In this document: one piece after another, positions 7,504 to 29,678 of the stretch | Position numbering within the stretch: the first letter of the stretch is position 1 | How the letters are laid out: the number at the start of each line of letters is the position of its first letter | Source: a virus | Length of the DNA stretch: 64,000 nt | Reading direction: 5' to 3' (one strand) | Virus record (IMG/VR): IMGVR_UViG_3300044837_000097 | Span: 18,716 to 82,715 of that record | Notes under the pieces: model-generated | The model's input: the letters and a program-made list of their open reading frames with translations, nothing else | Databases searched by the model: none | What the model was told of the DNA's origin: nothing | Translations under genes and position numbers: made by a program

Positions 7504-7515
7504 TCTCTAAACCGA

Positions 7516-7540: not shown

Positions 7541-7654
7541 CTCAGGGGAAAAATGGCCTCAGTCGCAACCAGCCAAACAACTCAAGCCTCGCAATACGGA
7601 TTCTGCACCCCATCACATTTTAACGCGCCCTCATCTGCGCGAGGATTTTAATTT

Positions 7655-10114: not shown

Positions 10115-10378
10115 ATGGCGCACACATACGTAGTAACTTCAAACAGTTATACTCCCGGTGTTCCCGGCCCTGACCCCCTCGTAACAATCATTGGAACAGT
10201 AGACGGCATTGCCGTAACCGTCCAAGTTTGGAAGAGTGCTTACGACGCCGCTCGCTTAATAAGTCTTGCTGCGTTAGAGGCATTGGTAGCACCTATAATG
10301 CTGGCGCAAGCGCAAATTAATCAACCCCCGGCTCCTTCGGTTCCGGTCAACCAAATAACCGGGACATTTATTCAGTAA
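10115..10378 (+). CDS. Small hypothetical protein (possible fibre chaperone)
   Basis: 87 aa, TAAATG junction. Confidence 0.55.
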   Translation: MAHTYVVTSNSYTPGVPGPDPLVTIIGTVDGIAVTVQVWKSAYDAARLISLAALEALVAPIMLAQAQINQPPAPSVPVNQITGTFIQ

Positions 10379-10391
10379 AAGGAAACAACAA

Positions 10392-11069: not shown

Positions 11070-11076
11070 GGATTTT

Positions 11077-12417: not shown

Positions 12418-13374
12418 ATGTTCACATTCACAATACAGAACTCTGCCTACTTCGCACAGCCGTTCGTTCAGTACGCGCCGCTCACCGCTGGATTCGGCTT
12501 CGAGCCTTCAACCACGATTTGCTCGATGATTCGCAATTCTCTTCTGTCTGCGCCGATGTCTTGGTTCTTCAACCGCAACGAGATAACTTTTCCAACGGTT
12601 GTAGGCCAGCAGGACTACTTGCAATCAATCAGTGCGAACGGAAATGATTTTGGCTTCATCGAGAAGGCAACGCTGACGGACGACCAAGGCAACATCATCG
12701 AAATTAAGGATGTGTACAACACGGCTCCTTTGGCTGTGTCGGCATTCAAGCAGCAACCGAGCGCGATAGCTGCACAGCAAATCACCTACAGCGGCGTAAC
12801 GCAATCGGTAAAGTTCCGCTTCCTCGGCGTGCCGAATCAGATTTACACCGTGACGGTTACTTATCAGAAGCTGGCTCCTCAGTTCGGACCTTTTTCGATT
12901 AGCGCGTCTTCGGCGGCATCAGGTGGAAACACTACGTACACCGGAACGTTTGACCCTTACTCTTTGCCAACAGGCGCGATAGCTACAATCGCCGGATTCG
13001 TTTCTCCCAACACGGCCAACAATGGGTCCTTCACGATTGTGAGTTGCAATGCGACAACCTTGGTGGTAGCAAACACCGCAGGCACGGCGGTCAGTGGCAT
13101 CACCGCGTTCGCCTTGAATTTGTCGTGGTCTCCAATCCCCAACCAGTTCAGCGACATCTACAACAATCTTTATCTGTCTGAGGTTTTATCGGTCCACGAC
13201 GATGCTCGTGCGCAATTGTATCGCCAGCGCGGCGTGGCTGCGTTCCTAGCGAAGTCGTCTGGTCTCACAGAGACGCAGAAGAACGCGTTCGTTCAACAGT
13301 GGATTGCTCGCGGTTCAGAGCGCGCATCCGCAGCACAAGCAATTCAAAGAGGCGACTTGGGGCGTAGTGTATAA
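12418..13374 (+). CDS. Head-tail adaptor-like protein 2 (paralogue)
   Basis: MSWFFNR...GQQDY...VPNQIYTVTVTYQK...PIPNQF. Confidence 0.55.
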   Translation: MFTFTIQNSAYFAQPFVQYAPLTAGFGFEPSTTICSMIRNSLLSAPMSWFFNRNEITFPTVVGQQDYLQSISANGNDFGFIEKATLTDDQGNIIEIKDVYNTAPLAVSAFKQQPSAIAAQQITYSGVTQSVKFRFLGVPNQIYTVTVTYQKLAPQFGPFSISASSAASGGNTTYTGTFDPYSLPTGAIATIAGFVSPNTANNGSFTIVSCNATTLVVANTAGTAVSGITAFALNLSWSPIPNQFSDIYNNLYLSEVLSVHDDARAQLYRQRGVAAFLAKSSGLTETQKNAFVQQWIARGSERASAAQAIQRGDLGRSV

Positions 13375-16300: not shown

Positions 16301-17156
16301 TTCTGTTACGATGGCACCCGGCGTCGGTTTGCTATCTTTCAACGCCTGCGATGTTTTTGCGGGTGAAATTTATTTCTTCTCCAGCGATAATCAGTTTCGA
16401 GTAATTACACCGTCTTTGAACATGTCGTTGTTTGGATTCCCGTTAGGCGACCAGTTCGCGAACAACCCGTCGTTTGGGAGCTTAGATACGACGTGGGACC
16501 CCTCGAAAGTTTACGTTGCTGTTCACCAGAATGGTACCGATAACTGCGTCTTCGTTGCGGACGGCTCAACTGGCTGGTATCGGTTGAATCCTCATCAAGT
16601 TCCGGGCGCGTCACAAGGGCCGGAACCGATTTGGTCGCCGTACGCAGTAATCACGGGCGGCGTAAAGATGGTGCAGAGCGTTGAGACTGCGCCGGGAATC
16701 AAGCAACTGCTTGGCGGCGGTGTCTCGCCGGGAGATAACATTCTCTCGCGCAGCTTGACCAACTTCCAAGACGACGGCGCATCATACGACGCGTTCGTCA
16801 CGATGGGCAGCATCACTCTCGCAAAGCCGGGAACTTTGGCGCTATTGAAGTTCTTAGAGTTCGATTTCTCCGGTGTTGCGTATCAGCCGGTAATAAGTTA
16901 TCTGTTGAACGAAATTAGCGGAACTTTTACCCCCTTCGTGAACGGGACATTCGGCGTACCGCAATTCGACCCGCCATCGCTGTACGGCGATACGATTGCT
17001 CCCACAAGTTATAGCCCGAACCGCTATTACTTTAGTGCGAACGCGTCCTTGGCTCGTTGCCGTCACATGCAGATTAAAATAGATTTCGGAACCACATCGA
17101 ACGGTGACGAAATGTATAGTTTGGCGGTTTATGGTCGTTCGATTGTAGAGAACTAA
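13374..17156 (+). CDS. Tail nozzle/stabilisation protein with inserted carbohydrate-binding-like repeats
   Basis: 1260 aa; NVEL...LQRRPG N-terminus, propeller-like C-terminus, repeated D-x-x-x-T-W-x-C-x-G motifs. Confidence 0.6.
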   Translation: MTSTFEQNGGQPQKQPKYTAIFVDRAFTGLYTQRPALHDPSDVVTSHYYGGRPDALLTGRNVELTNRNTLQRRPGMVPFRTTPGEGASYATAPDRAFSFQLANGTIRVIIDTGDSGLLAITAAANASAGTTVYTGTFPGGASNGYAGLTFVVAGFSTNLINNGTFTCTASSTTTLTLNNPNGIAETIAATADTAGGVYWDKMDGTATLLVAKSPGAGQMYFISVAGVLYMGDGIDTRKYTPLNVNGIIWNWGIVAPTAQPTIGLTPSGAAATRWQINTNFTTMGLTKDTNATPLIWQLISVNADGSQAATAQFGTAGNGEPNWPTAEGATLVDNSVTWLNMGPVSAILPNTFYTDLGIGGGYAGENFSQPGAGTAINSIYGNFKNSGHLGNTGGTLPAFSGAYPGPAGGYFNNNTHWFAIGSFNTPTQLLALRWKPSKVYANWAPTGANASIAGTPDFILTGNLPAAAGTVVNLFIPKVGGTSGSGYNPFPSTSVFGNTVTDNQLSWLCLGPAAWQSTFAYTPWVAQGTAFGCVFDGANFQVCVKSAGTGLSGSHIPGTAIVTAASVVVTNSGTTTIFTKSAGSWLATPSAGDQILTSGFANAANNGTFLVVSATSNTIVVNVNTGSPETATATITLSPWGTGYGAATQDGGITWTCVGQNVPWVAGSGTTGIWHLPTAGFQPPGPSEQFGGSEVAESGFVQAVVNSGKSGPSTPPVWPTTIGSTVTDAGSPTITWQTAAAISSQSLAWSFGLAYAYSFKARPIDDIYSPLPLGGGLVPPGSVPLGIPFGSETNAISSASPVNQIVGANTGSVNTISGNYSPDPQVDTIVIWRSADTASGSNTMFELTEIPNVPALAGVVMWKFQDFLPSVAAGSFPGLNVLLPAPVDGVNNPPLPTFLPQVFNFQRIWGSNGQQVNFSGGPDTNVGNPNEAFNESDELPFLAPVTRLVKTPQGIVTFLTDSIEIIGGGPATATFASVTMAPGVGLLSFNACDVFAGEIYFFSSDNQFRVITPSLNMSLFGFPLGDQFANNPSFGSLDTTWDPSKVYVAVHQNGTDNCVFVADGSTGWYRLNPHQVPGASQGPEPIWSPYAVITGGVKMVQSVETAPGIKQLLGGGVSPGDNILSRSLTNFQDDGASYDAFVTMGSITLAKPGTLALLKFLEFDFSGVAYQPVISYLLNEISGTFTPFVNGTFGVPQFDPPSLYGDTIAPTSYSPNRYYFSANASLARCRHMQIKIDFGTTSNGDEMYSLAVYGRSIVEN

Positions 17157-18925
17157 TGCCTGATAACCCGTACTTGACAAGCGAAGAAGAAGTTCCGAGT
17201 AATTGGTCTCCGGTTGAAACCGAGACGATGGGGCCGGGAAAATCTCCTGCGCCCCCTATTCCGCACGCGATGCCCCAGTATTTCTCCGGCTCGATGCCGC
17301 CTGCGCTGCAACACGATACATCATTTGTGAGCACGGAGGTGGGGAGTCCCCGCATCCCGAAGACATCGCTTATGCCACTGGGCTTGCAGCTTAGTTCTAT
17401 CACCAGCGCGGCGATTCAAAGCACTGCTACGAACATTGCACAGATAACGCCGGGTCCGAGCGGCGGTGGCGGTGGTGGAATCTCTAGCATCACTTTGAAT
17501 ATTCCAAATATTTTTACCCCTACTACTCAAACGAAAACGACAGACCCCGTAGTGTTGGCATTTACTCTGGCAACGGAACTTCCGGGAACTTATCTCGGCG
17601 TTCCAAGCGGCGCGGGATTAGGCGCACTGGAAGCATTTAACGTCGTAAGCAATCTAACGGGCGCTGGCGGGTCGGCCACGGTAACGGTAACGAGCACGCC
17701 AAGCACGGCGACATCGTGGGCGCTTCTACCCGTCGTTACAAAAAATGGATACGCCGGGGCGGGATTAGGCGCGTGGACCGGGATAACTGGAAACGACGGG
17801 CTTAAAGGCACGTTCATCAAAAATATAACCGGAACTTCCCCGGTTTCTGTTTCAGAGCCGCTCATCGCCAACGATACAGCGACCTTGGCTTTAGCTATTT
17901 TTTCCGGGCCTCTGCCTACTATAGTTCAGCAGAATACGGCGTCGTCGTGGACCGGGCAAACCATGTCCAAGGCTTACGGAAGTAGCAACACTGCGGGAAA
18001 CACATTATTCATTATTTTTCAATACACGCTTTCTTCCACCGCCTTTGGTGTGTCCGCTTCCGACACAGCCGGAAACTCCTACGTAACCTTGGCTTCTACC
18101 TTTGGAGGAAGCACGGCAATCGGAGCCACAGCCCAATTGATTATGATTGCTCCTGCCTGCTTGGGCGGTGCTAACACCGTCAACGTAAAAGTAACGGGAG
18201 GCAGCGGAGCAACCCCGGCAGGTCTGCTTCAAATTTTTGAAATTGCTCCGATAGCCGCAGGCGCGGGTGTCCCTTTTTTCCACCCTCTTTTCCCGGGAGA
18301 TATTCCACCCATCAATTTGAGTTCAGTTGGTAACGGCGGAATACAAAACATCCTTGGTTTAGCAAACGGGGGCACTAAATCCGATTTGTCCGGTACCGGA
18401 GGGCCAAGCCAATTCATATCTCAACTGAGTGCGGGGGCGGCTCTCAGCCCGACACAGCCGGATTTTGGTGACTTGGCCGGATTAAACAAAGCAATTAAGT
18501 ACAACAACATCGCGCTTGTAGGCGTGGGTTTGCCGTCCCTGATTGCTCTAGTAGACCGTACCGCACAAACGGCGGCTATTACCACAACCAATCTGCTAGC
18601 TTCGGTACCAACTACAGGGCAATACAGGCTGTCATGGAACGCGAAGGTTACAACGCCGGACGGGGCTAGTTCGACGTTAGGTGCTTTGACAATCACGTAT
18701 ACAGATGCCGACAACACGGTTCAAACCATCACAGCGGCAGCACAGAGCAAGAACGGAGTAATTGAAACTTCCGACACGGGAAACTCGACTACGGCGGTTT
18801 TACTCGGCGTCCCTATGATGTTAAACGCGCGTTCCGCTACAGCTATCCAATACGCTATGGCGTACGCCTCGGGCACGCCAGCGACGATGGCCTACAACCT
18901 TCATATAAAATTGGAGTCTTTGTAA
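17156..18925 (+). CDS. Tail fibre/spike protein
   Basis: 589 aa, Thr/Ser/Gly-rich, L-x-x-A-NGGT motif. Confidence 0.6.
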   Translation: MPDNPYLTSEEEVPSNWSPVETETMGPGKSPAPPIPHAMPQYFSGSMPPALQHDTSFVSTEVGSPRIPKTSLMPLGLQLSSITSAAIQSTATNIAQITPGPSGGGGGGISSITLNIPNIFTPTTQTKTTDPVVLAFTLATELPGTYLGVPSGAGLGALEAFNVVSNLTGAGGSATVTVTSTPSTATSWALLPVVTKNGYAGAGLGAWTGITGNDGLKGTFIKNITGTSPVSVSEPLIANDTATLALAIFSGPLPTIVQQNTASSWTGQTMSKAYGSSNTAGNTLFIIFQYTLSSTAFGVSASDTAGNSYVTLASTFGGSTAIGATAQLIMIAPACLGGANTVNVKVTGGSGATPAGLLQIFEIAPIAAGAGVPFFHPLFPGDIPPINLSSVGNGGIQNILGLANGGTKSDLSGTGGPSQFISQLSAGAALSPTQPDFGDLAGLNKAIKYNNIALVGVGLPSLIALVDRTAQTAAITTTNLLASVPTTGQYRLSWNAKVTTPDGASSTLGALTITYTDADNTVQTITAAAQSKNGVIETSDTGNSTTAVLLGVPMMLNARSATAIQYAMAYASGTPATMAYNLHIKLESL

Positions 18926-19344
18926 TGATAAAATTCACAGCATCGACAATTAGCGATATTCCTCAAATCGCGGAGTGGATTGCTGCCGACCCGTATCACA
19001 AGCACCAAGGTCAGCCAGAATGGTGGCTCACTGGAAGTGGGCTACTCACCTTCTGTTTACAAGACGATAAAGGCCCCCTGACCTTTGTCAGACTGGACGA
19101 AGAAGGTGAGCACGTTCGTATCCATACGCAGTTCGCGCCAAAAGAGATTGTTTCACAACGCCGACTTCTCCTTGGTATGATTGATTGTTTGACAGAACTA
19201 GTTAAAATTTATCGAACTCAATCGAGGGCGGGTCTGATATTTAATTCAGTCAGCCCGACTTTGGTGGCTTTCATGGAAAAGTGTTTCGATTTTAAGAGTG
19301 TCGGTGGCGATGACTACCGATTGGACTTCGAGGTGCAGAAATAA
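18925..19344 (+). CDS. GNAT-like virion-associated protein
   Basis: 139 aa at the position podoviruses usually place an acetyltransferase-like gene, before the ejection genes. Confidence 0.5.
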   Translation: MIKFTASTISDIPQIAEWIAADPYHKHQGQPEWWLTGSGLLTFCLQDDKGPLTFVRLDEEGEHVRIHTQFAPKEIVSQRRLLLGMIDCLTELVKIYRTQSRAGLIFNSVSPTLVAFMEKCFDFKSVGGDDYRLDFEVQK

Positions 19345-19964
19345 TGTGTGGACCCAGCAGCGCAGAAACTTCTTTGCAGGCGCAAACGCAGGCGTTCTCA
19401 AACGTCTTGCAACAAAACTACGGCACGTTGTTCGGTAAGCAGCAAGGCGTGCTTGACAGCATCAACAAGTCCTTGTCCCCGATTGTGGCGGCAGGACCGA
19501 GTCAGCGTGGCTTCTCTGGTGCTGAAACTTCTGCGCTACAAACGCAGGCCATTGAGAACGCAGGCGCGGCCAACACGGCAGCCCAACAAGCGGCGCGCAC
19601 GTATGGCGCAGGACAAGGCGGCGGTGGAACCAGCGGCTTGACCTCTGGCATCACGAAACAGATTCAATCAGCTATCGCTAGCCAGAGCGCCGGGGCTGAG
19701 AGTGCGCAATTGAACAAGATTAACTTGGAAGATTTCAACCAAGGCAACCAGAACTACTGGCGCGCTCAAGGCGGCATGAATGCGCTGGCGGCTGGCTACA
19801 GCCCGAACGCTTCGGCATCAGAAGCCGGGTCGGAAGCCGGACAGTCGTTCCAAGAGGCAGCGAAGATTAATCAAGAGAACAACGCGCTCGGTCAGGACAT
19901 CGCAGGCTTCGCAACCGCAGCAATCGGTTCGGCTGGCGACATCTTCAAGGCGTACAAGGGATAA
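19344..19964 (+). CDS. DNA ejection (pilot) protein
   Basis: MCG start, Ala/Gln/Gly-rich. Confidence 0.65.
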   Translation: MCGPSSAETSLQAQTQAFSNVLQQNYGTLFGKQQGVLDSINKSLSPIVAAGPSQRGFSGAETSALQTQAIENAGAANTAAQQAARTYGAGQGGGGTSGLTSGITKQIQSAIASQSAGAESAQLNKINLEDFNQGNQNYWRAQGGMNALAAGYSPNASASEAGSEAGQSFQEAAKINQENNALGQDIAGFATAAIGSAGDIFKAYKG

Positions 19965-19967
19965 GCT

Positions 19968-20222
19968 ATGAGCATCGGAGAGGGATTCCAAGAACTCGCC
20001 AAAGTAGCGAGCGACTACACCAACAACGGGATGGGCCAAGGCGGCGCATACGCGGCGGTCAGAGCGGCGCGCTCTCGCGAAGCCATCCATGACAGGGATA
20101 AAGCTGCGCAGTCGAAGGCTAAGACGACGACTGCCCCAGCCAATCTTGAGAGCGACACCAATCCACCAGCGGGCGACGTAGGCGATGCAACTCCCAAATC
20201 GGGCGACTCGGAAGTAGCTTGA
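19968..20222 (+). CDS. Small hypothetical protein
   Basis: 84 aa, SD AAGGGA. Confidence 0.55.
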   Translation: MSIGEGFQELAKVASDYTNNGMGQGGAYAAVRAARSREAIHDRDKAAQSKAKTTTAPANLESDTNPPAGDVGDATPKSGDSEVA

Positions 20223-20247
20223 CATTTTTCGGCAATACTGATACACT
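20219..20247 (+). promoter_or_regulatory. Sigma70-type promoter
   Basis: TTGACA, 17-nt spacer, TACACT with extended TG. Confidence 0.75.
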
Positions 20248-20256
20248 ATTTAAAGG

Positions 20257-22377
20257 ATGAAAATGGGAAATACACCTACATCACAGATTCTTCAAGGTTT
20301 GGTAGGCACGAGCGCAGAGCCAGCAGTGCAGGTTCCGATGCGCCCAACAGAGCCTGTGCAAGTCCCGATGCGTCCCTCGGACCAGCCAGCCGACACCACG
20401 GCTGCGCCGCCCGCCCCAGTAGCTGCGGGTGTTGAGCAGACGCCTTACGAGAAAGAGGGCGGCACCCTACCGATGCACCCTGTGGACGCAATGGCAACGA
20501 TGTTTATGAAGCACGTCACCGACGAGGCCAAAGAAAATTCGCCGGGTTCCTTCGGCGCAAAGTTGGCGGGCGCACTTGACGCTGCGGGCGCTGGCTTGGG
20601 CGATGCTCGCACAGGCGGCGACCCGGGACAAGGTCACGGATGGTTGAGCGCGGTAGGCGCAACGTTGGGCGCACGCACCCAGCGTTTAGAGCATCTGAAA
20701 GAGATTGCCTTCGACCAGAAGGAGCGTTTGAAGAACGACCAGATTAACCTCGCGACTGCGAACGCGAACTTGCGCCAGCACGCGATGACAATTCAGCAGC
20801 AAGAAAAGACCATCCGTGACGCGAGTGCATCATCCGGCTCGAAGTTCATGGACACGCTGCGCGCCAATTACAAGGTATCGGACAACATCTCTCAAGATGA
20901 ACTGATGTCGAGAGCGCAAGCAGACCCGAAGTTCTTGCAGACTCACACTGCTCGCATCACAGGCTATGAGCCTGTAATGGGTTCAGACGGTAAGCCGAAG
21001 ATGGTGGATGGTGTGCCTGTCGAAATGCCGAAGTTCAGTATCGCGGACATCGCACCGGGCGACATGTCGAAGCAGTACACGGTTGACGCGACCCACGCGA
21101 AGAAGTGGGCCGATTCAGGATTGAAGCCGCTGGAAGCTGGCACAGTTATGCCTGTCAGCGTTGCAAACCAGATGGACGTGCAAGCGGAACGCTACGGCAC
21201 CACGCTTGGTTTGTTGAACTTGTCGAAGGTTCAGCCTTTGCCGGATTCGGTGAAGGACCAGATGGTATCTGCGTTGCAAGACCCGGAAGTTCAGCACGCG
21301 GTCTCCATGCAGCCGGGTAGCCCGCTAGCCGGATTGTATGAGGCATCCGAGAACGTTGGACAGCACTTGCAAGTGGCGCAACAGCAGTTGGCCGCTGCTC
21401 AAAAGAGCGGTAATGCCGATGTGGTAACGAAGGCACAACAGAATCTAGCTGATGTGCAGCAAACGCAAAAGAATTTGGACCAAACGATTAACTCTGGCTT
21501 CACGCCGCAGGAGCGTTCTGCGTACCAGAAGCAGATGGAAACAGACCGCAAGCAGACGGAAGTGGAGAAACAGAACGCGGCACGCGATGCCGAGACCGCA
21601 CGCCACAACCGCGCCGAGGAAGCAATCAAGACCTTGGAGGCAAGCGGTGGTTCCCCGGAAGCGTTGCAGGACATGGGCCAGAAGTTGGCCGATGCGGAAA
21701 TGGTTCCATCCCAGCTATCGAAGCGTTCAAAGAATTACAACGCCTCGTGGCTATCGGCGGACAAGCAGTCTTGGAGCACATACGGAAAGCCGTACGATGG
21801 CGCGCAAGCGGAGTCGGAATACAAGTACGCTTCCAACTCTACCAACCAGAACGTGCTCAAGCTGGTTAACGGCGTAACGGACAAGGGCGGGTCTCTTGAC
21901 ATCGCTTTGGATGCTGCGAAAGCACTTCCGGGCATGGACTCGCAGACCTTGAACAAGGTTTTCAACACGACCAAGACCGAGTTCGGAAACAAGGCACTCA
22001 GCGACTTCCAGACCGCTATGCTCGGTCTCTCAGACGAATACGCGAAGATTATGGGCGGCGGCAACGCCACCGTCGCGGGCCAGCAGCAGGCTCTCGATAT
22101 TTTGAAGGCCGCGTACGCGAAGAACCAAATGGCAGGTGCTGCGACAATCGTTCGCAAGGACATCGCGGCACGTCAGCGTGGTATCATCGGCAAAAACCGC
22201 TTTTTGCAGAAGCAATACTACGGAAACAACGGTATGACCGTAACGATGATTTCGCCGGACGGGAAGAACTATCAAGAAGTCCCGAAAAGCCAAGCGCAGT
22301 TTTACACCGGCAAGGGCGCACGCATCGCTAACAAGCAGGACTACGCCAACCTTAACATTACGTCCACGGACCACTAA
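20257..22377 (+). CDS. DNA ejection protein
   Basis: 706 aa, helical, contains the AETARHNRAEE motif typical of internal virion proteins. Confidence 0.65.
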   Translation: MKMGNTPTSQILQGLVGTSAEPAVQVPMRPTEPVQVPMRPSDQPADTTAAPPAPVAAGVEQTPYEKEGGTLPMHPVDAMATMFMKHVTDEAKENSPGSFGAKLAGALDAAGAGLGDARTGGDPGQGHGWLSAVGATLGARTQRLEHLKEIAFDQKERLKNDQINLATANANLRQHAMTIQQQEKTIRDASASSGSKFMDTLRANYKVSDNISQDELMSRAQADPKFLQTHTARITGYEPVMGSDGKPKMVDGVPVEMPKFSIADIAPGDMSKQYTVDATHAKKWADSGLKPLEAGTVMPVSVANQMDVQAERYGTTLGLLNLSKVQPLPDSVKDQMVSALQDPEVQHAVSMQPGSPLAGLYEASENVGQHLQVAQQQLAAAQKSGNADVVTKAQQNLADVQQTQKNLDQTINSGFTPQERSAYQKQMETDRKQTEVEKQNAARDAETARHNRAEEAIKTLEASGGSPEALQDMGQKLADAEMVPSQLSKRSKNYNASWLSADKQSWSTYGKPYDGAQAESEYKYASNSTNQNVLKLVNGVTDKGGSLDIALDAAKALPGMDSQTLNKVFNTTKTEFGNKALSDFQTAMLGLSDEYAKIMGGGNATVAGQQQALDILKAAYAKNQMAGAATIVRKDIAARQRGIIGKNRFLQKQYYGNNGMTVTMISPDGKNYQEVPKSQAQFYTGKGARIANKQDYANLNITSTDH

Positions 22378-22379
22378 AA

Positions 22380-25300
22380 ATGACCGACCAGAATTCGAAT
22401 TGGTTTGACCAGAACGCGCCGGGGGCTGCACCGCAACAAGGTCAGCCCGCCCCACAGCAAGCTGCGCCAGCACCAACGCCTGCGCCACAGCCTGCGGGTA
22501 ATTGGTTTGACCAGAATCCAGCGCCAGCAGCTACGCCAGCCGCTGCCGAAACGGAAGAGAAAGCTGCACCAGCACAGCCGCAAGGTTTGTGGGACAAAAT
22601 CAAGACCGCAGTAGCGGGGCCGACGACAGCACTGGGTACACCACTTGGCGAGGACCAATCACAAGAACTATCAGGCTTGGGCGACATCTTGCAAGGTAAC
22701 GTGAAGCAAGGCGCGGGAAAAATCTGGAATTCCGAAAAGATTGATGCGAAGAACATCGTGCCGGGTTCACCTGCGGAATGGGCTATCCGTCAGTTCGACC
22801 CGGACTTCCACGGTGGGGCAACGAAGGAAGCCATCGCTGCGATGAAGGCAAAGAACCCGAATGCGGGCGAGAAGCCGCTTCTCGACGTTGCTCAATTCAT
22901 CGACATGAAGAAGCACCCGATTGGAAAGGCTTTGACGGAAGTCGCACAAGGCTTCACCTCCCCGGAGAATATCGCCATCATGTACGGCACCGGAGGTCTC
23001 GGTTTGATTGGGCAGACGCCGAAGGCTTTGAAAGCGTTCGGCACGATGAGCCGCCTAATCTCTGCGGGCTTCGCATATCAGGCACTACAAGGTGCGTACG
23101 AACACTCGAAGGCTTTCAAGGAAGCGTTTGATGCAGGCGACGAGGAACGTGCCGAATACGAGTTGACCCACGCAGTTGCGGGCGGCGTAATCGGAACACA
23201 GGCTGCGACTCACGCGGCGGAAGGTTTGCCACTACCGGGCTACGACAAGGGCGGTAAGGGCAATGCAGTAAAGCCGCTGGTCGAATTGTCACCGACAGAG
23301 AAGAAAGTTGCGGGCGCAATTAGCACCGCAGTCGGTCACGCAGCGGATGCCACCAAGAACTTTACTGCGGAAAAACTACAAGCCGCGACAGACCGCGTTG
23401 GTGTCGTATTCGGAAGAACTGCGGACTTCGATGAGGCCGTCACCCGCGTTGCGAACATGATGGGCAAGAAGGCGGGTCCAGAATTTAAGGAGAAGGTCTC
23501 AAACGCTAGTGATGATTTGAAGCAGATTATCAACGAAGACACCACCAACAAGATTGTGGACCCGGAGACGGCGGCGCAAGCAGTTGACCGCCACATTCAG
23601 GGCAACATCGAGGCACCGTTGCTGCAAGAAGCACACGCAACGAAGGATTCAACAGAGCCTGTTGTGCCGGATTTCAAGGCCCGCTTGAATGAGCGTCTTG
23701 ACAAGTTCTTCGATGAGAACGCGGGCAAGTACGGTTCACCGGAAGAGGAAGACGTTATCAAGCAGCGTATTCTGGACCGCATGGACCGCGACCAAGACCT
23801 CGGCAATGGTGTGAAGATTGCGCGTGAGCCGAATTTATACGAAGCCGAAAATATCCGCCAAGGCTTGAACAAGGAAGCTGGTAGCGTATTTGAGCAGGGC
23901 ACTAGCAGCGGATACCGCGCTGCGGCAGCAGAGACCTCGAACTTTATGCGTGAGGTCATCGACGAATCATACAAGGCGAATGGCGTTCAAGGCGTGCCGG
24001 ACGCACGCGCAAAGGAAGCAGACCTAATTGACATTCGTGATGCGTTGAGAGACGCACAAGGCCGCTTCGAAGCACAAAAAGCGACTCCTGCTCTGTTGAA
24101 ACTGTTCTCTCTCGGTAAGTTGGCCGGGATGGTTGGTGCTGTAGGAGCGCACTTCTTCGGCAGCGATATTCTAGGCGGCGCGCTGGCGGCAGGCTCTGCG
24201 TGGAAGGCTATCCACGAGCACAATGTCTCGAATTTGGAAGGCAACTTGGAACGCGCCCGACAGTTGGCCGCGCGTGAACAGGGAGCCTCGGCCACCGTTC
24301 CTGAGTTCAACCAGACCCCGGTTCCGCCGCCAGCGGGTCCTGCGGGAGCACAGATTCCACCGAACATGCCGCCGCGTCCGACCCCGCCTCAGCCTGCGAC
24401 CCGCCCTGCGGTTAATCACACGCTGAACGGCGAACTCGCATCGTACTTCTCAGAAGACCGCGCGACTTCGCCAGAAGAGTACAACGGCCTGCTTGACCGC
24501 TTCAAGGAGAAGTTTGCGACAATGAAGCAGAGCGTTGCCGACTTGAAGGCTAAGGGACAGGAGTTGCCGGAAGCCTACAAGGATGAGTGGAAGCAGGCGA
24601 ACGAACTCCACGCCACGATTCAGAAGGAAGGCGCGAAGGAAGATGCTGCGCTGGAAAAAGAAAACAAGAAGCGCCAAGACAAGTATGTGAAGGATAGTCA
24701 AGACTGGACCAGTCAGTTGCAGACCGAAACACAGAAGCAGGCCGAATTGACGAGACAGCAGAAGGATGCGGAGTCGCAGGCCAAGATTCAGGAAGAGAAG
24801 GCCCGTGTTGACGCAATCTTGAAGGATGAGCGTGTAGCTCACAGCCCGTTGATGAAGTCCACCGATGAGGCGCAGCCGATTGAGGGTGTGGAAGGACGTT
24901 CCTCGAAGGAACTTCACCGCCATGAGCACGGCCACATTATGGCGAACGTAGCGGAAGGTTTGAATCCGTTCACGTTTGTCGCCGCAGAGCATCCAGACGC
25001 AGTGGAGAGCGGCGCTGCGGCACAAGTCCACACGGACGTATCGGGTGCGGAAGAAGGCCCGAAGGGCATCGCACAACGCGTTGTCGGCATCTTGGGCGGT
25101 CCCGCGTTTGACGAAGTGCACCAAGGCATCACGATTGGCCGTAACACCGGGGCACGCGCCGACATCAGCCGCGCTCGCGAGATTCTGCGTGAAGAAGGCG
25201 GATTGAAGGGCAACCAGTTGGAGAAAGTATTTGACGCTCTATATGACAGAGCGAAGGAACACGTTTCAAACCCGGAAGCACTTGCACTGGTTGACGCTAA

Positions 25301-28300
25301 CGCGGACCTGCGCGAGGCTGGACTTCACAAGAACTTCCACATGTCACCGGGACGTATGGAAGAGTACGTTAAGAAACTAAAGGGAGCATATCGAAATGGC
25401 GAAACACCAAGCACCGAAGGAGTTCGTGAAGGGGATTCCGATGGAGGAGTACCGCAAGGAGAATCCGCTGGAACCGGAAACGGTGGAAGCGAACAAGATG
25501 GGGCTGTTGAAAGAACACGCACCGAAGCTGCACGAAAGAGCGACGAAGGCGCAGAAGCAGCAGCAGCCAGAGAAGAACGCTCAAGCGTAAAGGCCGCGAT
25601 GCCGCCAGAGCGTTCAACTGGTGACGCGGAACTTGACAAGAAGATTAAGAGCGGCGGGGCTATCCCTGCCGGACGCTTCGGACCTCTGGCGATGTTCCAC
25701 CACCCGGAGACTGGAAGCACACTGGCGTTGAAACCGGAAGAGATTACGCCGGAAGCTGTGAAGGAGCACGTCGCCAAGAGCACGGAGAAATACACTCAGG
25801 GCGACATCCGCAACACTGCGCGTCAATACAACGAGGTACGCGGGCTGCCGGAAGTCAACCCGGCCCCAGTGACCGAGGACCCGCGCGTTCAAGAAATGGG
25901 CCGCGTGTACGATGAGTTGAAGCACAACCCGAATGACCCGAAGGTCGAGGCATCATACAAAGCATTCAAAAACGAACTGGACCATCAGTACGACGCGCTG
26001 ACGAAGGCTGGATTTAAGTTTGACACCTCGAAAGAGGACCCGTATCCGTCGTACGACGCAATGCGCCAAGACATTCTGCGCAACAAGCACTTGACGGCAT
26101 GGGAAGGTGCAGCACCGCCAGCAGACCACCCGCTGGCAGAGCGCGACCCGAAGACTGGATTTACGTATAACGAAAAGTTCCGCTTGGTGCATGACGTTCT
26201 AGGGCACGCGGCGCACGACGCCGACTTTAGCGGGAACGGAGAAGAATCTGCGTGGAACTACCACCGTCAGATGTTCTCCCCGGAAGCCCAGCCTGCGCTC
26301 GCTGCCGAAACCCGTGGGCAGGTTGCTTCGTTCACTCGTAACGGAAAATTCCCGGACACACAGAAGGCTGTCTTGATGCCGGACGCTTACAATATGCGCC
26401 CGGAAGACATTATGAAGTCAAGTCTGTCGAAGACGGGTGGCAACGCAATCAAGAAGTTGGAGAACTCGAACGAAGAGTTCGCACGCCCTATCGGCTACGA
26501 TTCAAGCAAGCCGTTCACTAATAAGACAGCACCTGCGGTGATTTTGCCGGATGGACGAATCATTCCTGCTCGTTTGTCGCATGCGGACATCGCCGGGGAA
26601 GCTGGATTCAAGGATGATTTTGACGGCGTTCAAGACCTGTTGAAACACACGGATGGAGTACGCGTCATGTACCCAGACCGTGGCCGTGGAAACATCGGCA
26701 TCCAGTCCCACGCAAATCCGAACGATGTTCAAACCGGGACTGTCGCCAGCGTATTGAAGCACGCTGCGGAAGCGGGCATCGGAGACGGAAAGAACTTCGT
26801 GTGGGATTTGGGCGCGCCGGGCAAGGACCATGTTTCAGGCTCTGGCACCATCAACGATTATCGTCGAGCAATCGAATCGAAAGGAGTAGAGAAGTCGAAT
26901 CTCAATTGGGCGAAGAAGGTAGAGGACGAGCCGTTCGGTGGCGTTAACCCGAACGACCCGGAGGCACCGAGCAAGAAGTATGCGTTCGAGTTGTCACCGG
27001 AGAATCGCCACACGCCTGAGAAGCTGACTGCGCAAGAGGCACAAGCGTTCGCAGAACGTCCAGATGTGAAGGAATTGCTAGCGACTCACCCGGACATAAA
27101 GCTGGGTTGGGACACAACGACACAAGGCCGTCCTGAGTTGAATATCGGCGTATCGACGAACGATTTGGACACCGCAAAGAAAGTTGCGGGCAAGTTGGAC
27201 CAGCGCGCAATCGTAGACACACAGACCGGGGACGAGATTTCAGCAGGCGGTACGGGAACGAAGACCGAGTTCCCTGACTACCCGCTGGCGGACAGATTGA
27301 AAGACCTCGGCATCGAGAAGTCAGACATCGCGAAGTCACCGAAGGGTTCCAGCGTCCCATTGATGGAGAATCCGCTTCCAGTTAAAGGTACGATGGAAGG
27401 GAATGAAGTCGGCACGCTCGACTTGACCAAGGCACTAAACGCTTACAGCCGCAAGCAGCTTCCGTCGTTGGAGCCGGGTTCGGAGCCGAAGGAGATGGTT
27501 GACCGCGCGAAGAAGATTGCGGAAGACGAAGCGAAGTATCAGTTGGCGCAGTCAAAGACTGGCACCGAATGGTACACCACGGAAATGAAGGACCACGATA
27601 AGGTCTTGACGGACCTGCGCCCTGAGTTGTTGACGGGACCGGAGACAACTTCGGAAGCGCCGTGGACTCACACCGCGAAGATGACTTTGTTCAAGGCGGC
27701 GGAAGCTATTTTGTCATCCGGCCAGAAGCCGTATGCGAACGTGAAGTCGGCGCTGCGCGCTTGGGATGCATACAACGAGACAGGAGAATTTCCTCGCAGT
27801 AATCCGGCAACAGGCAAGGAAGGAATGTCGTGGGGTCCGCGTGGCGTTAATGCATACGGCAGCGCCTTTGACTCGTTGAATAAATTGATTCAAGAGAAGG
27901 GCGAGAAAGGCGCAGCGGATTGGCTGCTATCTGAACACCCAGTGAAGGAACTGCGTAGCTATCAGTCGGAAGGCCAATCTCCTGTGAAGGGTAAAGCAGA
28001 CGAAAATGAAACGGGCGCAATGATTCTAGGCGCGAAGCGTGGGCCATTCATGCAGAACCTTCACGGCATCGAGTCGAAGTTCACCGCCGACATGTGGGTA
28101 TCGCGTAGCTGGAACCGCTGGATGGGCACACTGGACTTGGACCCTCGCATCGAGAACAAGGGCAAGATGACATCGGAGTCGGACGCGCCACGCAATAACA
28201 CGGAGCGCACGCTTATGAATCAATCATTCTCCGAGACTGCAAACAAATTGGGGTTGACGACTTCCAGCTTGCAAGCCGTTTTGTGGTACTATGAGCAGGC

Positions 28301-28532
28301 GTTGTATCGTGCCCACGGGCTTCCTGTAGAGTCATGGTCGTTCTCTGACGCTGCAAAGCGAGTAGGGAAGGAAGCCAGCGCACCACCGGAAGCGGAGCAG
28401 ACCGGATTTGGTTTCGGAGCCAACGAAAACACTAGTCCGAAGGAAGCCGGGTTTAGAGGCTTGACCGCACCGGAGCTTAAGAACGGCTCGGCGGTCCACG
28501 CTCTCGACCTCATTAACGCGTTGAAGAAATAG
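22380..28532 (+). CDS. Giant multidomain (polyvalent) ejected protein
   Basis: 2050 aa; NWFDQN repeats; Gly-rich hydrophobic segments; zincin HEHGH; second HDVLGH...GEESAW domain; C-terminal WY...TADMWVSR...LQAVLW domain. Confidence 0.7.
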   Translation: MTDQNSNWFDQNAPGAAPQQGQPAPQQAAPAPTPAPQPAGNWFDQNPAPAATPAAAETEEKAAPAQPQGLWDKIKTAVAGPTTALGTPLGEDQSQELSGLGDILQGNVKQGAGKIWNSEKIDAKNIVPGSPAEWAIRQFDPDFHGGATKEAIAAMKAKNPNAGEKPLLDVAQFIDMKKHPIGKALTEVAQGFTSPENIAIMYGTGGLGLIGQTPKALKAFGTMSRLISAGFAYQALQGAYEHSKAFKEAFDAGDEERAEYELTHAVAGGVIGTQAATHAAEGLPLPGYDKGGKGNAVKPLVELSPTEKKVAGAISTAVGHAADATKNFTAEKLQAATDRVGVVFGRTADFDEAVTRVANMMGKKAGPEFKEKVSNASDDLKQIINEDTTNKIVDPETAAQAVDRHIQGNIEAPLLQEAHATKDSTEPVVPDFKARLNERLDKFFDENAGKYGSPEEEDVIKQRILDRMDRDQDLGNGVKIAREPNLYEAENIRQGLNKEAGSVFEQGTSSGYRAAAAETSNFMREVIDESYKANGVQGVPDARAKEADLIDIRDALRDAQGRFEAQKATPALLKLFSLGKLAGMVGAVGAHFFGSDILGGALAAGSAWKAIHEHNVSNLEGNLERARQLAAREQGASATVPEFNQTPVPPPAGPAGAQIPPNMPPRPTPPQPATRPAVNHTLNGELASYFSEDRATSPEEYNGLLDRFKEKFATMKQSVADLKAKGQELPEAYKDEWKQANELHATIQKEGAKEDAALEKENKKRQDKYVKDSQDWTSQLQTETQKQAELTRQQKDAESQAKIQEEKARVDAILKDERVAHSPLMKSTDEAQPIEGVEGRSSKELHRHEHGHIMANVAEGLNPFTFVAAEHPDAVESGAAAQVHTDVSGAEEGPKGIAQRVVGILGGPAFDEVHQGITIGRNTGARADISRAREILREEGGLKGNQLEKVFDALYDRAKEHVSNPEALALVDANADLREAGLHKNFHMSPGRMEEYVKKLKGAYRNGETPSTEGVREGDSDGGVPQGESAGTGNGGSEQDGAVERTRTEAARKSDEGAEAAAAREERSSVKAAMPPERSTGDAELDKKIKSGGAIPAGRFGPLAMFHHPETGSTLALKPEEITPEAVKEHVAKSTEKYTQGDIRNTARQYNEVRGLPEVNPAPVTEDPRVQEMGRVYDELKHNPNDPKVEASYKAFKNELDHQYDALTKAGFKFDTSKEDPYPSYDAMRQDILRNKHLTAWEGAAPPADHPLAERDPKTGFTYNEKFRLVHDVLGHAAHDADFSGNGEESAWNYHRQMFSPEAQPALAAETRGQVASFTRNGKFPDTQKAVLMPDAYNMRPEDIMKSSLSKTGGNAIKKLENSNEEFARPIGYDSSKPFTNKTAPAVILPDGRIIPARLSHADIAGEAGFKDDFDGVQDLLKHTDGVRVMYPDRGRGNIGIQSHANPNDVQTGTVASVLKHAAEAGIGDGKNFVWDLGAPGKDHVSGSGTINDYRRAIESKGVEKSNLNWAKKVEDEPFGGVNPNDPEAPSKKYAFELSPENRHTPEKLTAQEAQAFAERPDVKELLATHPDIKLGWDTTTQGRPELNIGVSTNDLDTAKKVAGKLDQRAIVDTQTGDEISAGGTGTKTEFPDYPLADRLKDLGIEKSDIAKSPKGSSVPLMENPLPVKGTMEGNEVGTLDLTKALNAYSRKQLPSLEPGSEPKEMVDRAKKIAEDEAKYQLAQSKTGTEWYTTEMKDHDKVLTDLRPELLTGPETTSEAPWTHTAKMTLFKAAEAILSSGQKPYANVKSALRAWDAYNETGEFPRSNPATGKEGMSWGPRGVNAYGSAFDSLNKLIQEKGEKGAADWLLSEHPVKELRSYQSEGQSPVKGKADENETGAMILGAKRGPFMQNLHGIESKFTADMWVSRSWNRWMGTLDLDPRIENKGKMTSESDAPRNNTERTLMNQSFSETANKLGLTTSSLQAVLWYYEQALYRAHGLPVESWSFSDAAKRVGKEASAPPEAEQTGFGFGANENTSPKEAGFRGLTAPELKNGSAVHALDLINALKK
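25396..25590 (+). CDS. Overprinted 64-aa gene nested (+1 frame) in the giant protein gene
   Basis: SD GGAG 25383-86; 48 of 64 codons end in G/C by hand count, while the host frame here becomes a low-complexity linker with atypical codons. Confidence 0.65.
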   Translation: MAKHQAPKEFVKGIPMEEYRKENPLEPETVEANKMGLLKEHAPKLHERATKAQKQQQPEKNAQA

Positions 28533-28931: not shown

Positions 28932-29678
28932 ATGAGAGTAGTAGCGGTCCCAGCAGCGAATAGACCGGAACTTCTGGCCTTGACGCTGGAACGCTTGTCT
29001 CAGTCAAACAACCTGCCCGAGGTCCACATTTATGCGGACTCGGTTTCAGAATCCCGCCTCCGAGAGTTCGAGGTCGTTCGCGACCTTTATCTCCCGGAGG
29101 CTTTTTTGTTTCACGCCCGCTCTCACGTTCCGGCGATTTCCGGCGCTTGGAATATCTTGAACTGTTTGAAGGACGCCGCTCGGTGGGCGAATGAGGTTTA
29201 CTTGGTGGAGGAAGACGTGCTGGTCTTTTCGAACTTCTTCGATTGGCACGCAACTCAGACCTCAGACATTTCTTGCGGACGAATTATGCCGAGATACCCA
29301 GACTTCAAGCTGTACACGAACCCGGGGAGCCGCTTCTCTCGTTGCGCGCTCGATGCTTTGGTGCCGCACGTTTGTGACGAGTATTACCGCGATACAGACG
29401 CTTACTGCGATAAAGTGAAGCCGGGGGTCCACATTTCCACGCTAGATGATGGGCTGATTCGCCGAGTGGTCGCTGCGGAGAATTTAACGGTGACGTTCCC
29501 GCCGTCTCCGGTCTGCGCTCACGTTGGATTTCGTTGGCTTGGTCGATTGGACATTTACCAAATCCCGGACGGGACGTTGGAGGAAAGAATTGAGAGGGTC
29601 CGCGAGTTGGTCGCAAACCCCCCGAATAAAGAACGTTACGCGAGAGATTGGGAGCCTTTTACGGTTGGACCCCGATGA
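28932..29678 (+). CDS. GT-A glycosyltransferase (GT13/GT2-like)
   Basis: ANRPELL...VYLVEEDV...FF; C-terminal HVG. Confidence 0.75.
   Translation: MRVVAVPAANRPELLALTLERLSQSNNLPEVHIYADSVSESRLREFEVVRDLYLPEAFLFHARSHVPAISGAWNILNCLKDAARWANEVYLVEEDVLVFSNFFDWHATQTSDISCGRIMPRYPDFKLYTNPGSRFSRCALDALVPHVCDEYYRDTDAYCDKVKPGVHISTLDDGLIRRVVAAENLTVTFPPSPVCAHVGFRWLGRLDIYQIPDGTLEERIERVRELVANPPNKERYARDWEPFTVGPR

What the first reader, a model, noticed from the sequence alone, without database searches (positions are those of the whole stretch)
25381..25590. Overprinted gene hidden inside the giant ejected protein, directly after its zincin domain
Seen: SD GGAG, 9 nt, ATG, then a 64-aa +1-frame ORF (MAKHQAPKEFVKGIPMEEYRKENPLEPE...) with about 75% GC3. 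Over the same interval the 2050-aa frame turns into a G/E/S-rich linker full of GGA/AGA/GAA codons, so codon selection seems to act on the nested frame. It begins where the HEHGH peptidase-like domain ends. Inference: an effector-partner (toxin-immunity-like) cassette was captured in-frame, and the partner gene survives as an overlap that may restrain the injected domain during late expression.
Basis: partly seen in the sequence, partly recalled or inferred. Interest (0 to 1): 0.75.

Follow-up and report, generated by a model that had tools for sequence, protein, structure and literature searches.

The report
Partner gene nested in phage giant protein
A small, conserved gene is written in a second reading frame inside a phage's giant multi-domain protein, directly after a protease-like domain that its product is predicted to bind, so one stretch of DNA seems to encode both a flexible linker and a likely regulator of the neighbouring enzyme.

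Summary
A 64-codon ATG ORF (25396-25590) with GGGAG 9 nt upstream lies in the +1 frame of the 2050-aa ORF (22380-28532), starting where a conserved HEHGH domain ends.

On one genome this is not beyond chance: T is only 9% there, and codon-resampled sequences stay open 28-57% of the time. Comparison makes it real:
- All 5 distinct relatives with DNA keep the +1 ORF, its ATG and an SD-like motif.
- Main-frame third-position divergence is 0.55-0.73 along the aligned gene but 0.26 only here.
- Nested-frame identity is 31-35 of 52-55, against 13-15.5 simulated (0 of 20,000 reach it).
- The nested peptide belongs to an unannotated family that also occurs in frame in independent proteins.

The upstream domain folds like the FtsH (M41) protease domain. 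The small protein folds confidently (pLDDT 87.9). It is predicted to bind that domain at the HEHGH site (ipSAE 0.88, best control 0.00).

Most likely this is a dual-coding partner or inhibitor gene. Translation, binding and inhibition are untested.

The parts
22380..28532 (+). Giant ORF (2050 aa, frame 0), a polyvalent-type multi-domain phage protein. It is read through the overlap into conserved downstream domains.
   Evidence: The main frame is open in all 6 genomes with DNA, and the 13 called homologues span the site. phrog_3170 matches aa 1169-1338.
24840..25394 (+). HEHGH peptidase-like domain (aa 821-1005), with an FtsH/M41-like zincin fold. HEHGH is at 24921-24935. The invariant FDEVH is at 25107-25121.
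   Evidence: Alignments A4 and A7: 47-76% identity over 14 sequences. AF2 model pLDDT 92.6, pTM 0.90. Foldseek top hits are FtsH protease domains, best 7tdo_A at E 2e-4, TMq 0.53. Coordinates.
25378..25380 (+). TAA stop in the +1 frame, 5 codons before the nested ATG. It bounds any upstream extension or frameshift entry in this genome.
25382..25386 (+). Shine-Dalgarno-like GGGAG, 9 nt before the nested ATG. Relatives have AGGGAG, AAGGAG or AAGGGG at 4-9 nt.
   Evidence: By a loose criterion, 20 of 31 large ORFs in the window carry an SD-like motif.
25396..25590 (+). Nested +1-frame gene of 64 aa plus stop. It encodes a small domain (beta-hairpin plus three helices) of an unannotated family.
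   Evidence: conservation; selection; homologues; fold; predicted binding to the upstream domain.
25395..25592 (+). Frame-0 reading of the same DNA (aa 1006-1071): a G/E/A/S-rich low-complexity linker between the peptidase-like domain and the variable downstream domains.
   Evidence: The main frame also shows weaker constraint here. With the nested protein held fixed, main-frame identity was 24-25 of 49 against about 16 simulated (P 0.0007-0.003). The chance of it staying open in both genomes was 0.007-0.017.
25602..25622 (+). PPERSTG motif, where the conserved frame-0 sequence resumes after the overlap.

Best explanation
The 64-codon +1-frame ORF is a genuine protein-coding gene embedded in the giant polyvalent-type protein gene. 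This one stretch of DNA is dual-coding.

Frame 0 gives a flexible Gly/Glu-rich linker that joins an FtsH-like (M41-type, HExxH) peptidase domain to the downstream domains.

Frame +1 is read from its own SD and ATG by internal initiation on the same late mRNA. It gives a 7-kDa folded protein of an unannotated domain family.

That protein most likely binds the peptidase domain encoded immediately upstream. Its conserved N-terminal segment (KHQxPxEF) lies along the substrate-binding edge strand and over the HEHGH helix. Its second helix (N33, L37, L38) packs on the helical subdomain. This would hold the peptidase in check, or otherwise regulate it, while the giant protein is made and assembled.

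Shown by comparison: the frame is selected, and its product is homologous to independent proteins.

Supported only in silico: the binding.

Inferred: inhibition, its timing, and delivery of the giant protein into the host.

My odds: real selected gene about 0.93; binds the peptidase domain about 0.6; acts as an inhibitor released on ejection about 0.4. The confidence given for this explanation (0.6) is for the composite 'real nested gene whose product is a partner of the adjacent peptidase domain'.
For: 1. Conservation. All 5 distinct relatives for which I hold DNA have a +1-frame ATG ORF of 61-67 codons at the same place, with an SD-like motif. These are L002, L003 (identical to L010), L006, L011 and L012. 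Their peptidase domains are 60-73% identical to the window's (A7 values). Four of these genomes turned up in searches that used only the main-frame domain. The fifth, L012, encodes P0040, which a main-frame protein search found.

2. Start codon. In 5 of 6 genomes the ATG is made from the minority Asn codon AAT plus a following G. AAT is 0.19-0.37 of Asn codons in those genes. In L011 it is made from TAT-G.

3. Synonymous-site constraint. Main-frame third-position divergence is 0.55-0.73 in sliding windows along about 1350 aligned codons. It falls to 0.26 only over the overlap. This is the only place where d3/mean(d1,d2) is below 1, at 0.74.

4. Resampling test. With the main-frame proteins fixed and codons resampled, nested identity is 12.7-15.5 (sd about 2.8, maximum 27). 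The observed values are 31-35 of 52-55. None of 20,000 simulations reached the observed value in any of 4 pairs.

5. Homologues elsewhere. A profile of nested peptides found 15 proteins at E<=1e-3 among 1.84 billion representatives. A profile built from the six nested ORFs alone scores P0003 at 101 bits. It scores the membrane-anchored 176-aa P0008 at 48 bits (E 7e-8 for the whole library) and P0011 at 41 bits. Profiles of the main and third frames score 4 bits or less. P0043 (379 aa) and P0042 (1107 aa) carry the domain in frame at 64-67% identity. P0043 begins M-x-x-KH..., like the nested ORF.

6. Fold. The AF2 model of the nested protein has mean pLDDT 87.9, with 45 of 64 residues at 90 or above.

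7. Upstream domain. It folds like the FtsH protease domain.

8. Predicted complex. ipSAE was 0.88 in each of 3 runs, and the best of 3 controls was 0.00. The tool states that this mark was reached by 58 of 80 solved complexes and 2 of 110 mismatched pairs, and that the counts hold only roughly because my own alignments were used. Contact agreement between runs was at least 95% and the partner's pLDDT was at least 83. The interface includes domain residues 28-29 and 32 (H, E and H of HEHGH) and strand 57-68. On the small protein it includes residues 1-13 and 29-42. Ten of the 18 invariant positions of A3 fall in those ranges.

9. No indels occur in about 50 overlapped codons across the genomes. 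Large indels begin right after the nested stop.
Against: - There is no evidence of translation. No sequencing run could be listed for this stretch.
- Binding rests on one structure-prediction job that used my own shallow alignments. The tool says this supports binding but does not show it.
- Nested third positions diverge only 0.35, not about 0.6. So the frames constrain each other, and a clean per-frame dN/dS was not obtained.
- Some short 'stand-alone' database hits may be the same nested ORF called on fragmentary contigs. P0005 is identical to the C-terminal part of L002's nested ORF. I could not see the DNA around P0003, P0004 or P0006.
- Family members fused to membrane anchors or to an unrelated 310-aa domain show no peptidase domain of their own. 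The domain may therefore have a more general target.
- L012 keeps the nested gene although its motif is HEAGGH.
- The small protein has no known fold match and no Pfam, PHROG or NCBIfam family.
Confidence: 0.6

Rival explanations
1. The nested gene is real, but its product does not regulate the adjacent peptidase. It is a general adaptor or binding module with another target. Candidates are a host protein such as FtsH, the membrane, or an assembly or packaging partner of the giant protein. On this reading it sits in the linker only because a linker tolerates overprinting.
For: The same domain occurs on membrane-anchored proteins (P0008, P0011, P0016). It occurs before a C-terminal membrane helix (P0015). 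It occurs in front of an unrelated 310-aa domain (P0043). None of these has a recognisable peptidase domain. L012 keeps the gene beside an HEAGGH variant.
Against: The gene sits directly after the peptidase domain in 6 of 6 genomes, while everything downstream is reshuffled. The predicted complex scores 0.88 against 0.00 for controls, with conserved residues of both partners at the interface. That is a prediction, not a measurement.
Confidence: 0.27
2. The +1 frame is reached by programmed +1 ribosomal frameshifting from the giant ORF. This would give a shorter product, the N-terminal part plus peptidase domain, with the 64-aa domain as an alternative C-terminal tail, rather than a separate small protein.
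For: The conserved domain in frame 0 runs straight into the conserved domain in frame +1 with only about 3 codons between them. A cis tail folding back on the active site would be a plausible autoinhibitor.
Against: A +1-frame stop lies 5 codons before the ATG in the window and 4 codons before it in L012. This leaves a window of 15 nt or less, and its sequence is not conserved between genomes. The ATG is kept in 6 of 6 genomes through a minority codon, and an SD-like motif is kept at 4-9 nt. Independent family members start with Met 2-6 residues before the same HQPP/KH motif (P0006, P0012, P0014, P0043).
Confidence: 0.05
3. There is no second protein. The ORF is a by-product of a purine-rich, T-poor linker, and the conservation reflects a nucleotide-level element or chance.
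For: T is 9-14% of the stretch in all six genomes. Openness alone is expected 28-57% of the time. Long chance ORFs also lie on the opposite strand of the same stretch.
Against: Amino-acid conservation in the +1 frame lies far beyond the resampling null, with 0 of 20,000 simulations reaching it in 4 pairs. Independent proteins match only this frame, at up to 101 bits, against 4 bits or less for the other two frames. The fold prediction is confident. RNA folding of 25340-25460 is unremarkable, z -0.93.
Confidence: 0.02

Closest known systems
Lambda Rz/Rz1 embedded spanin genes
   Same: A small gene lies wholly inside a larger phage gene in the +1 frame, and the two products are partners. The +1 embedding of Rz1 in Rz is recalled. 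Only the search listing and abstract starts of PMC5295617 and PMC6139136 were seen.
   Different: The small protein here has no signal peptide, lipobox or Cys, so it is not an o-spanin. The host gene is a 2050-aa multi-domain protein, not a lysis gene. The overlap covers only an inter-domain linker. The predicted partner surface is a peptidase active site.
Zincin-like metallopeptidase (MPTase) domains of phage and plasmid polyvalent proteins (Iyer et al. 2017, PMC5512222; passages read)
   Same: This is a giant phage protein with an HExxH domain between other domains. Relatives carry PF18760, PF02195 and DUF7178. HExxxH variants exist here, as that paper describes. The paper predicts autoprocessing of the polyvalent protein.
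   Different: No Pfam model hits the window's protein at E<=0.1. The nearest solved fold is the FtsH M41 domain. In the text I searched, 'overlapping' occurs 0 times, so a partner gene in another frame is not described there. Its supplements were not seen.
[quoted passage not shown]
   Same: A small, helical phage protein is proposed to block an FtsH-type HExGH peptidase site.
   Different: The target here would be the phage's own AAA-less peptidase domain, not host FtsH. Sequence similarity to CIII was not tested. Inhibition here is only inferred.
Toxin-immunity (effector-immunity) pairs of polymorphic toxin systems
   Same: A small cognate-binding protein is encoded immediately after the enzymatic domain it is proposed to neutralise.
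   Different: The partner gene is not downstream in its own space. It is overprinted on the continuing ORF. Toxicity of the domain and protection by the partner are untested.
Overprinted or overlapping genes of small viruses, phiX174-type (review PMC8227390; listing and abstract start seen)
   Same: Two frames of one DNA stretch are both under selection. Synonymous variation in the host frame is suppressed. The overprinted reading is compositionally biased and low in complexity.
   Different: This occurs in a phage of roughly 100 kb that is under no obvious pressure for genome size. The frame that looks older is the nested one.

Membership tests
Out-of-frame overlapping (nested) protein-coding gene | The alternative frame is open, with a start codon, in all relatives | tested here: met
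   6 of 6 genomes (the window plus 5 distinct relatives) have a +1 ATG ORF of 61-67 codons.
Out-of-frame overlapping (nested) protein-coding gene | Synonymous-site variation of the host frame is suppressed over the overlap | tested here: met
   d3 is 0.26 in the overlap against 0.55-0.73 elsewhere. It is the only window with d3/mean(d1,d2) below 1.
Out-of-frame overlapping (nested) protein-coding gene | Amino-acid conservation or homology in the alternative frame beyond what the host frame imposes | tested here: met
   Observed identity was 31-35 against 13-15.5 simulated, and 0 of 20,000 simulations reached it. Independent homologues score up to 101 bits, against 4 bits or less for the other frames.
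Out-of-frame overlapping (nested) protein-coding gene | The product is detected (Ribo-seq, proteomics or tagging) | not testable with these tools
   This is an uncultured phage, and no sequencing run was listed.
Zincin metallopeptidase, FtsH/M41-like | HExxH motif on a helix | tested here: met
   HEHGH is at aa 848-852, inside helix 22-38 of the model. 12 of 14 aligned homologues have HExxH, and 2 have HExGGH.
Zincin metallopeptidase, FtsH/M41-like | Fold similarity to solved M41 protease domains | tested here: met
   The Foldseek top hits are all FtsH or relatives, at E 2e-4 to 1e-3 and TMq 0.49-0.55. 2di4_B gives TMt 0.56.
Zincin metallopeptidase, FtsH/M41-like | A third zinc ligand and catalytic activity | tested here: inconclusive
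   Invariant D91 and E92 (FDEVH) are candidates.
Zincin metallopeptidase, FtsH/M41-like | Match to a curated sequence model (Pfam Peptidase_M41 or MPTase-PolyVal) | tested here: not met
   The Pfam scan of the whole 2050-aa protein gave 0 families at E<=0.1. So it is filed as 'FtsH-like fold', not as a member of M41.
Polyvalent protein (Iyer et al. 2017) | A large phage protein that combines several unrelated enzymatic domains, including an MPTase | tested here: inconclusive
   The window's protein has the HExxH domain plus phrog_3170. Its relatives carry PF18760, PF02195 and PF23802. The other domains of the window's own protein were not identified.
Polyvalent protein (Iyer et al. 2017) | Packaged in the virion and delivered into the host | not testable with these tools
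Effector-immunity pair | The cognate small protein binds the enzymatic domain | tested here: inconclusive
   The in-silico complex passed, at 0.88 against 0.00. This is a prediction, not a measurement.
Effector-immunity pair | The domain is toxic and the partner protects | not testable with these tools
   This needs expression and rescue assays.
Rz1-type o-spanin | Lipoprotein signal with a lipobox Cys | tested here: not met
   The 64-aa product has no Cys and no hydrophobic N-terminus.

The most novel reading that the evidence does not exclude
The nested protein defines a new family of small modules that bind and inhibit FtsH/M41-type peptidases. The phage would use a free copy, encoded in the second frame of its own linker, to keep an FtsH-derived peptidase domain silent until the giant protein leaves the virion. 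The membrane-anchored and fused relatives (P0008, P0011, P0016, P0043) would dock on or block host FtsH-type proteases. In addition, the linker that the peptidase may cleave and the inhibitor that blocks it would be two readings of the same DNA. The fusion of formerly separate genes would have created the linker by overprinting an older partner gene.
Probability: 0.2. Interest if true: 0.9.

Novelty: new variant of a known kind. Interest (0 to 1): 0.78.

Why it matters
Nested out-of-frame genes are well accepted in tiny viruses and in the Rz/Rz1 lysis pair. Gene callers exclude them by design in large phage genomes. This case has strong comparative support, and it sits in a class of proteins (giant polyvalent or injected proteins) whose regulation is unknown.

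If the product really blocks the adjacent FtsH-like peptidase, three things follow. It would explain how such proteins avoid self-processing before delivery. It would add a new small protease-inhibitor fold. It would also give a worked example of a gene fusion that turned an older gene's alternative frame into a linker.

The case also points to a practical screen. Low-complexity linkers in giant phage proteins with low host-frame GC3 and suppressed third-position divergence may hide more partner genes.

Tried and rejected
Family searches on the nested protein and its relatives gave nothing usable.
- Pfam: only Smoa_sbd, E 0.088, below its cut-off.
- PHROGs: 0 families for the nested protein. 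Across the 18 members of A5, 3 families were each matched by 1 member, at E 0.012 or weaker.
- NCBIfam: 1 of 18 members, at E 0.087.
- ESM Atlas: best scores 0.77 and 0.82, both under the 0.9 lead level.

Fold searches of the nested model found no match. Foldseek against PDB gave 0 matches at E<=10. VIA-align wide gave a best Z of 3.9, and 0 chains reached Z>=5.

Phage GenBank records hold no DNA match. The tblastn search matched only aa 1143-1918 of the giant protein, never the overlap.

Searches for the genomic context of the independent family members failed.
- Viral contigs with A6 and A8: none.
- Genome contigs with A6 and A8: none.
- Only A9 gave a locus, L012, and that is again the nested arrangement.

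None of the 13 giant homologues carries the small domain in frame 0. The non-domain parts of P0043, P0042, P0008, P0011 and P0016 match nothing in the giant proteins or the loci.

Between 24600 and 25900 there is no + strand promoter-like site. Terminator-like sites are at the shuffle level. RNA structure around the start is unremarkable, z -0.93.

No RNA holder was listed, and no run of any kind was listed for 24800-26200.

An early idea was that P0003 and P0004 show frame 0 and frame +1 fused. I dropped it because their N-termini align equally well with the +1-frame upstream residues of L011 and L006. Without their DNA this stays undecided.

Flaws in my own runs:
- In one search the L011 row was misregistered by one codon and is ignored.
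- In one search, dropping a gap column shifted the first two residues of the L006 row.
- L012 was fetched after and is not in those tests.
- One search used only alignment columns filled in at least 4 of 5 sequences.

The 38-aa +1 ORF after L006's second HELGH domain did not reach E<=10 with the family HMM.
Full report
WHAT IS THERE. The window is part of an 82.7-kb IMG/VR viral record. Earlier notes of this scan describe it as an uncultured phage of roughly 100 kb with many tRNA genes and an intron-split capsid gene at 2557-5567 (unchecked by me). ORF 22380-28532 encodes 2050 aa. It has no Pfam family at E<=0.1 and one PHROG match, phrog_3170 at aa 1169-1338. ORF 25396-25590 lies in its +1 frame: ATG start, 64 aa, TAA stop, with GGGAG at 25382-25386 and a 9-nt spacer. 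Nested GC3 is 0.75. Over the same codons the main frame has GC3 0.32 (0.64 in the rest of the gene). It uses GGA for 7 of 12 Gly and GAA for 11 of 11 Glu.

IS ONE GENOME ENOUGH? No. The stretch is purine-rich, with T at 9%, so stop codons are rare in all forward frames. When I kept the main-frame proteins fixed and resampled codons, the +1 frame stayed open in both genomes of a pair in 28-57% of 20,000 trials. The giant gene has five other same-strand alternative-frame ORFs of 50-117 aa and six SD-like+ATG sites. A 156-aa ORF on the opposite strand (25325-25795) is of the same compositional origin.

RELATIVES. Searches with the main-frame segment or domain alone found three IMG/VR contigs and two JGI metagenome contigs. 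L010 is identical to L003 over the gene. A search with small family members brought in L012. L012 encodes P0040, a giant homologue found independently by a main-frame protein search. That gives five distinct relatives with DNA: L002, L003, L006, L011 and L012. Their peptidase domains are 60-73% identical to the window's. All five have an ATG ORF of 61-67 codons in the +1 frame at the same place, preceded by AGGGAG, AAGGAG or AAGGGG at 4-9 nt. In five of the six genomes the ATG is built from the minority Asn codon AAT followed by G (AAT is 0.19-0.37 of Asn codons there). In L011 it is built from TAT-G. The start even moves by one or two codons together with small main-frame indels, and is still kept.

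SELECTION. I built a codon alignment of the five giant genes then in hand. Pairwise divergence at main-frame third positions is 0.55-0.73 in sliding 55-codon windows all along the gene. This includes the highly conserved peptidase domain, where first and second positions drop to 0.13-0.25. Over the overlap it falls to 0.26, while first and second positions are at 0.35-0.38. This is the only region where the third position is the least variable (ratio 0.74). Main-frame position 3 is nested position 2, so this is the expected mark of a protein read in the +1 frame.

With the main-frame protein pair fixed and codon pairs drawn from the rest of the gene, simulated +1-frame identity is 12.7-15.5 (sd about 2.8, maximum 27). 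The observed identity is 31-35 of 52-55. None of 20,000 simulations reached it in any of four pairs.

The reverse test holds the nested proteins fixed. It shows weaker but real constraint on frame 0. Identity is 24-25 of 49 against about 16 simulated (P 0.0007-0.003). The probability that frame 0 stays open in both genomes is 0.007-0.017. This covers three pairs, because the L011 row was misregistered and is discarded. So both frames are kept, and the nested one is constrained more strongly. About 50 overlapped codons have no indel in any genome. Directly after the nested stop the giant proteins differ by large insertions.

THE NESTED PEPTIDE IS A KNOWN-NOWHERE BUT REAL DOMAIN. A profile of nested peptides plus two close database proteins was scored against 1.84 billion representatives and found 15 proteins at E<=1e-3. 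Re-scored with a profile of the six nested ORFs only, and with the whole library size, P0003 (67 aa) gets 101 bits. P0004 gets 84, P0006 gets 66 and P0009 gets 57. P0008 gets 48 (E 7e-8) and P0011 gets 41 (E 1.5e-5). Profiles of the main frame and the third frame of the same DNA score 4 bits or less.

P0008, P0011 and P0016 (176-221 aa) have an N-terminal hydrophobic helix and carry the domain at their C-terminus. P0015 has it at the N-terminus, followed by a C-terminal hydrophobic helix. A search among longer proteins found P0043 (379 aa), which starts M-P-Q-K-H-...-KEF and continues into an unrelated 310-aa domain. It also found P0042 (1107 aa), at 64-67% identity to the nested peptide. Several small members start with Met 2-6 residues before the HQPP/KH motif, like the nested ORF.

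A caution applies. Some short hits may be the same nested ORF called on fragments. P0005 is identical to part of L002's nested ORF. The family has no Pfam, PHROG or NCBIfam model. AlphaFold2 with the 18-sequence alignment gives mean pLDDT 87.9: a beta-hairpin at residues 10-15 and helices at 16-22, 27-41 and 43-55. No solved fold matches it.

THE NEIGHBOUR. The 185 residues before the overlap (aa 821-1005) are 47-76% identical among 14 homologues. The invariant residues include H28, E29 and H32 of HEHGH, and D91, E92 and H94. The model (pLDDT 92.6, pTM 0.90) matches FtsH protease domains first: 7tdo_A at E 2e-4 and TMq 0.53, then 3kds, 2ce7, 4z8x and 2di4. Two of the 14 have HExGGH instead of HExxH. 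Iyer et al. describe such HEXXXH variants among polyvalent-protein metallopeptidases. They propose that these domains autoprocess the giant proteins (PMC5512222, passages read). Because no curated sequence model matches, I call it FtsH-like by fold and do not file it as a member of M41.

DO THE TWO BIND? I ran one complex prediction with alignments A7 and A5. It gave ipSAE 0.88 in each of three runs, against 0.00 for the best of three controls. According to the tool, this mark was reached by 58 of 80 solved complexes and 2 of 110 mismatched pairs. The tool adds that the counts hold only roughly, because my own alignments were used. The runs agree in at least 95% of contacts and the partner's pLDDT is at least 83.

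The interface on the domain includes residues 25, 28-29, 32 and 36 (the HEHGH helix), strand 57-68, and helices 104-134. On the small protein it includes residues 1-13 and 29-42. Ten of the 18 invariant positions fall in those ranges: K3, H4, Q5, P7, E9, F10, G13, N33, L37 and L38. E9 and F10 pair with residues 65-67. Lying along the edge strand next to the metal site is how zincin substrates and substrate-like inhibitors are usually bound (general knowledge of the fold, recalled). This supports binding but does not show it.

MECHANISM, WITH ODDS. Real, selected nested gene: about 0.93. Translated by internal initiation at its own SD/ATG rather than by frameshifting: about 0.85 given that the gene is real. 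The reasons are a +1 stop 4-5 codons upstream in two genomes, a non-conserved spacer, the conserved ATG, and family members that start at the same point. Binds the adjacent peptidase domain: about 0.6. Acts as an inhibitor that keeps the domain silent during late synthesis and assembly and is left behind on delivery: about 0.4. That the giant protein is packaged and injected is inferred only from its kind and position.

The distribution suggests an origin. The +1 frame holds a widespread domain. Frame 0 holds only a lineage-specific Gly/Glu linker flanked by conserved domains. This suggests that an upstream peptidase gene came to read through an older small partner gene in another frame and so fused to downstream genes. 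That is inference, and I found no unfused arrangement.

COMPARISON AND NOVELTY. The nearest analogue in architecture is lambda Rz/Rz1 (recalled; listing). The product here has no lipoprotein signal and the context is different. In logic it resembles effector-immunity pairs, and lambda CIII acting on FtsH (abstract start of PMC1838920). In my searches I found no paper that describes a partner gene overprinted on the linker of a polyvalent or ejection protein. Searches gave listings only. In PMC5512222 the word 'overlapping' occurs 0 times. Supplements were not available. I rate it a new variant of a known kind.

LIMITS. There are no expression data. There are only six genomes with DNA. Formal two-frame dN/dS was not run. 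Binding rests on one prediction. The context of the independent family members is unseen.

Noticed in passing
L006:4991-5107 (+1 frame of the giant gene 1084-6402): L006's giant protein has a second, diverged HELGH peptidase-like domain, 28% identical to the first. It too is followed in the +1 frame by a short ATG ORF (38 aa) ending ...LEKEFKPRK, which recalls the family's LLKEFxPK motif. The family HMM does not reach E<=10 on it. It may be a decayed second copy or chance.
   Followed up: partly
window 25325-25795 (-), 25369-25617 (-); also L002 3525-3983 (-), L003 3619-4059 (-), L012 5807-6376 (-): Long ORFs (82-189 aa) lie on the opposite strand of the T-poor overlap region in several genomes. 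They are most simply a compositional by-product. I did not test their conservation.
   Followed up: no
Proteins P0040 (= L012 3072-8645) and P0041: Two of 14 homologues have HEAGGH or HEVGGH in place of HExxH. L012 still keeps the nested gene intact.
   Followed up: partly
window 25600 onward; alignment: Directly after the nested stop the giant proteins of different phages diverge by large insertions and different domain sets. Precomputed Pfam hits in relatives are PF23802 (DUF7178), PF18760, PF17338 and PF02195. The N-terminal 1005 aa stay collinear. The overlap marks the boundary between a constant half and a shuffled half.
   Followed up: partly
window 25885-26393 (aa 1169-1338 of the giant protein): The phrog_3170 domain is shared with many phage records. 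199 of the 215 matching records are Mycobacterium phages. Two cyanophage records annotate it as 'lysin'. Its function is unknown.
   Followed up: no
window 6092-22377 and 28932-29678: Ten large same-strand ORFs around the giant gene gave 0 PHROG families at E<=1e-3. Seven of them also gave no Pfam family at E<=0.01. This virion-side module is very remote from described phages.
   Followed up: no
Proteins P0042 and P0025 (JGI): P0042 carries the small domain in frame and has a receiver domain. P0025 is a 206-aa membrane-anchored family member. Both are recorded on a JGI contig of 11090 bases. They may lie on one contig carrying two family members. I could not look at the DNA.
   Followed up: no
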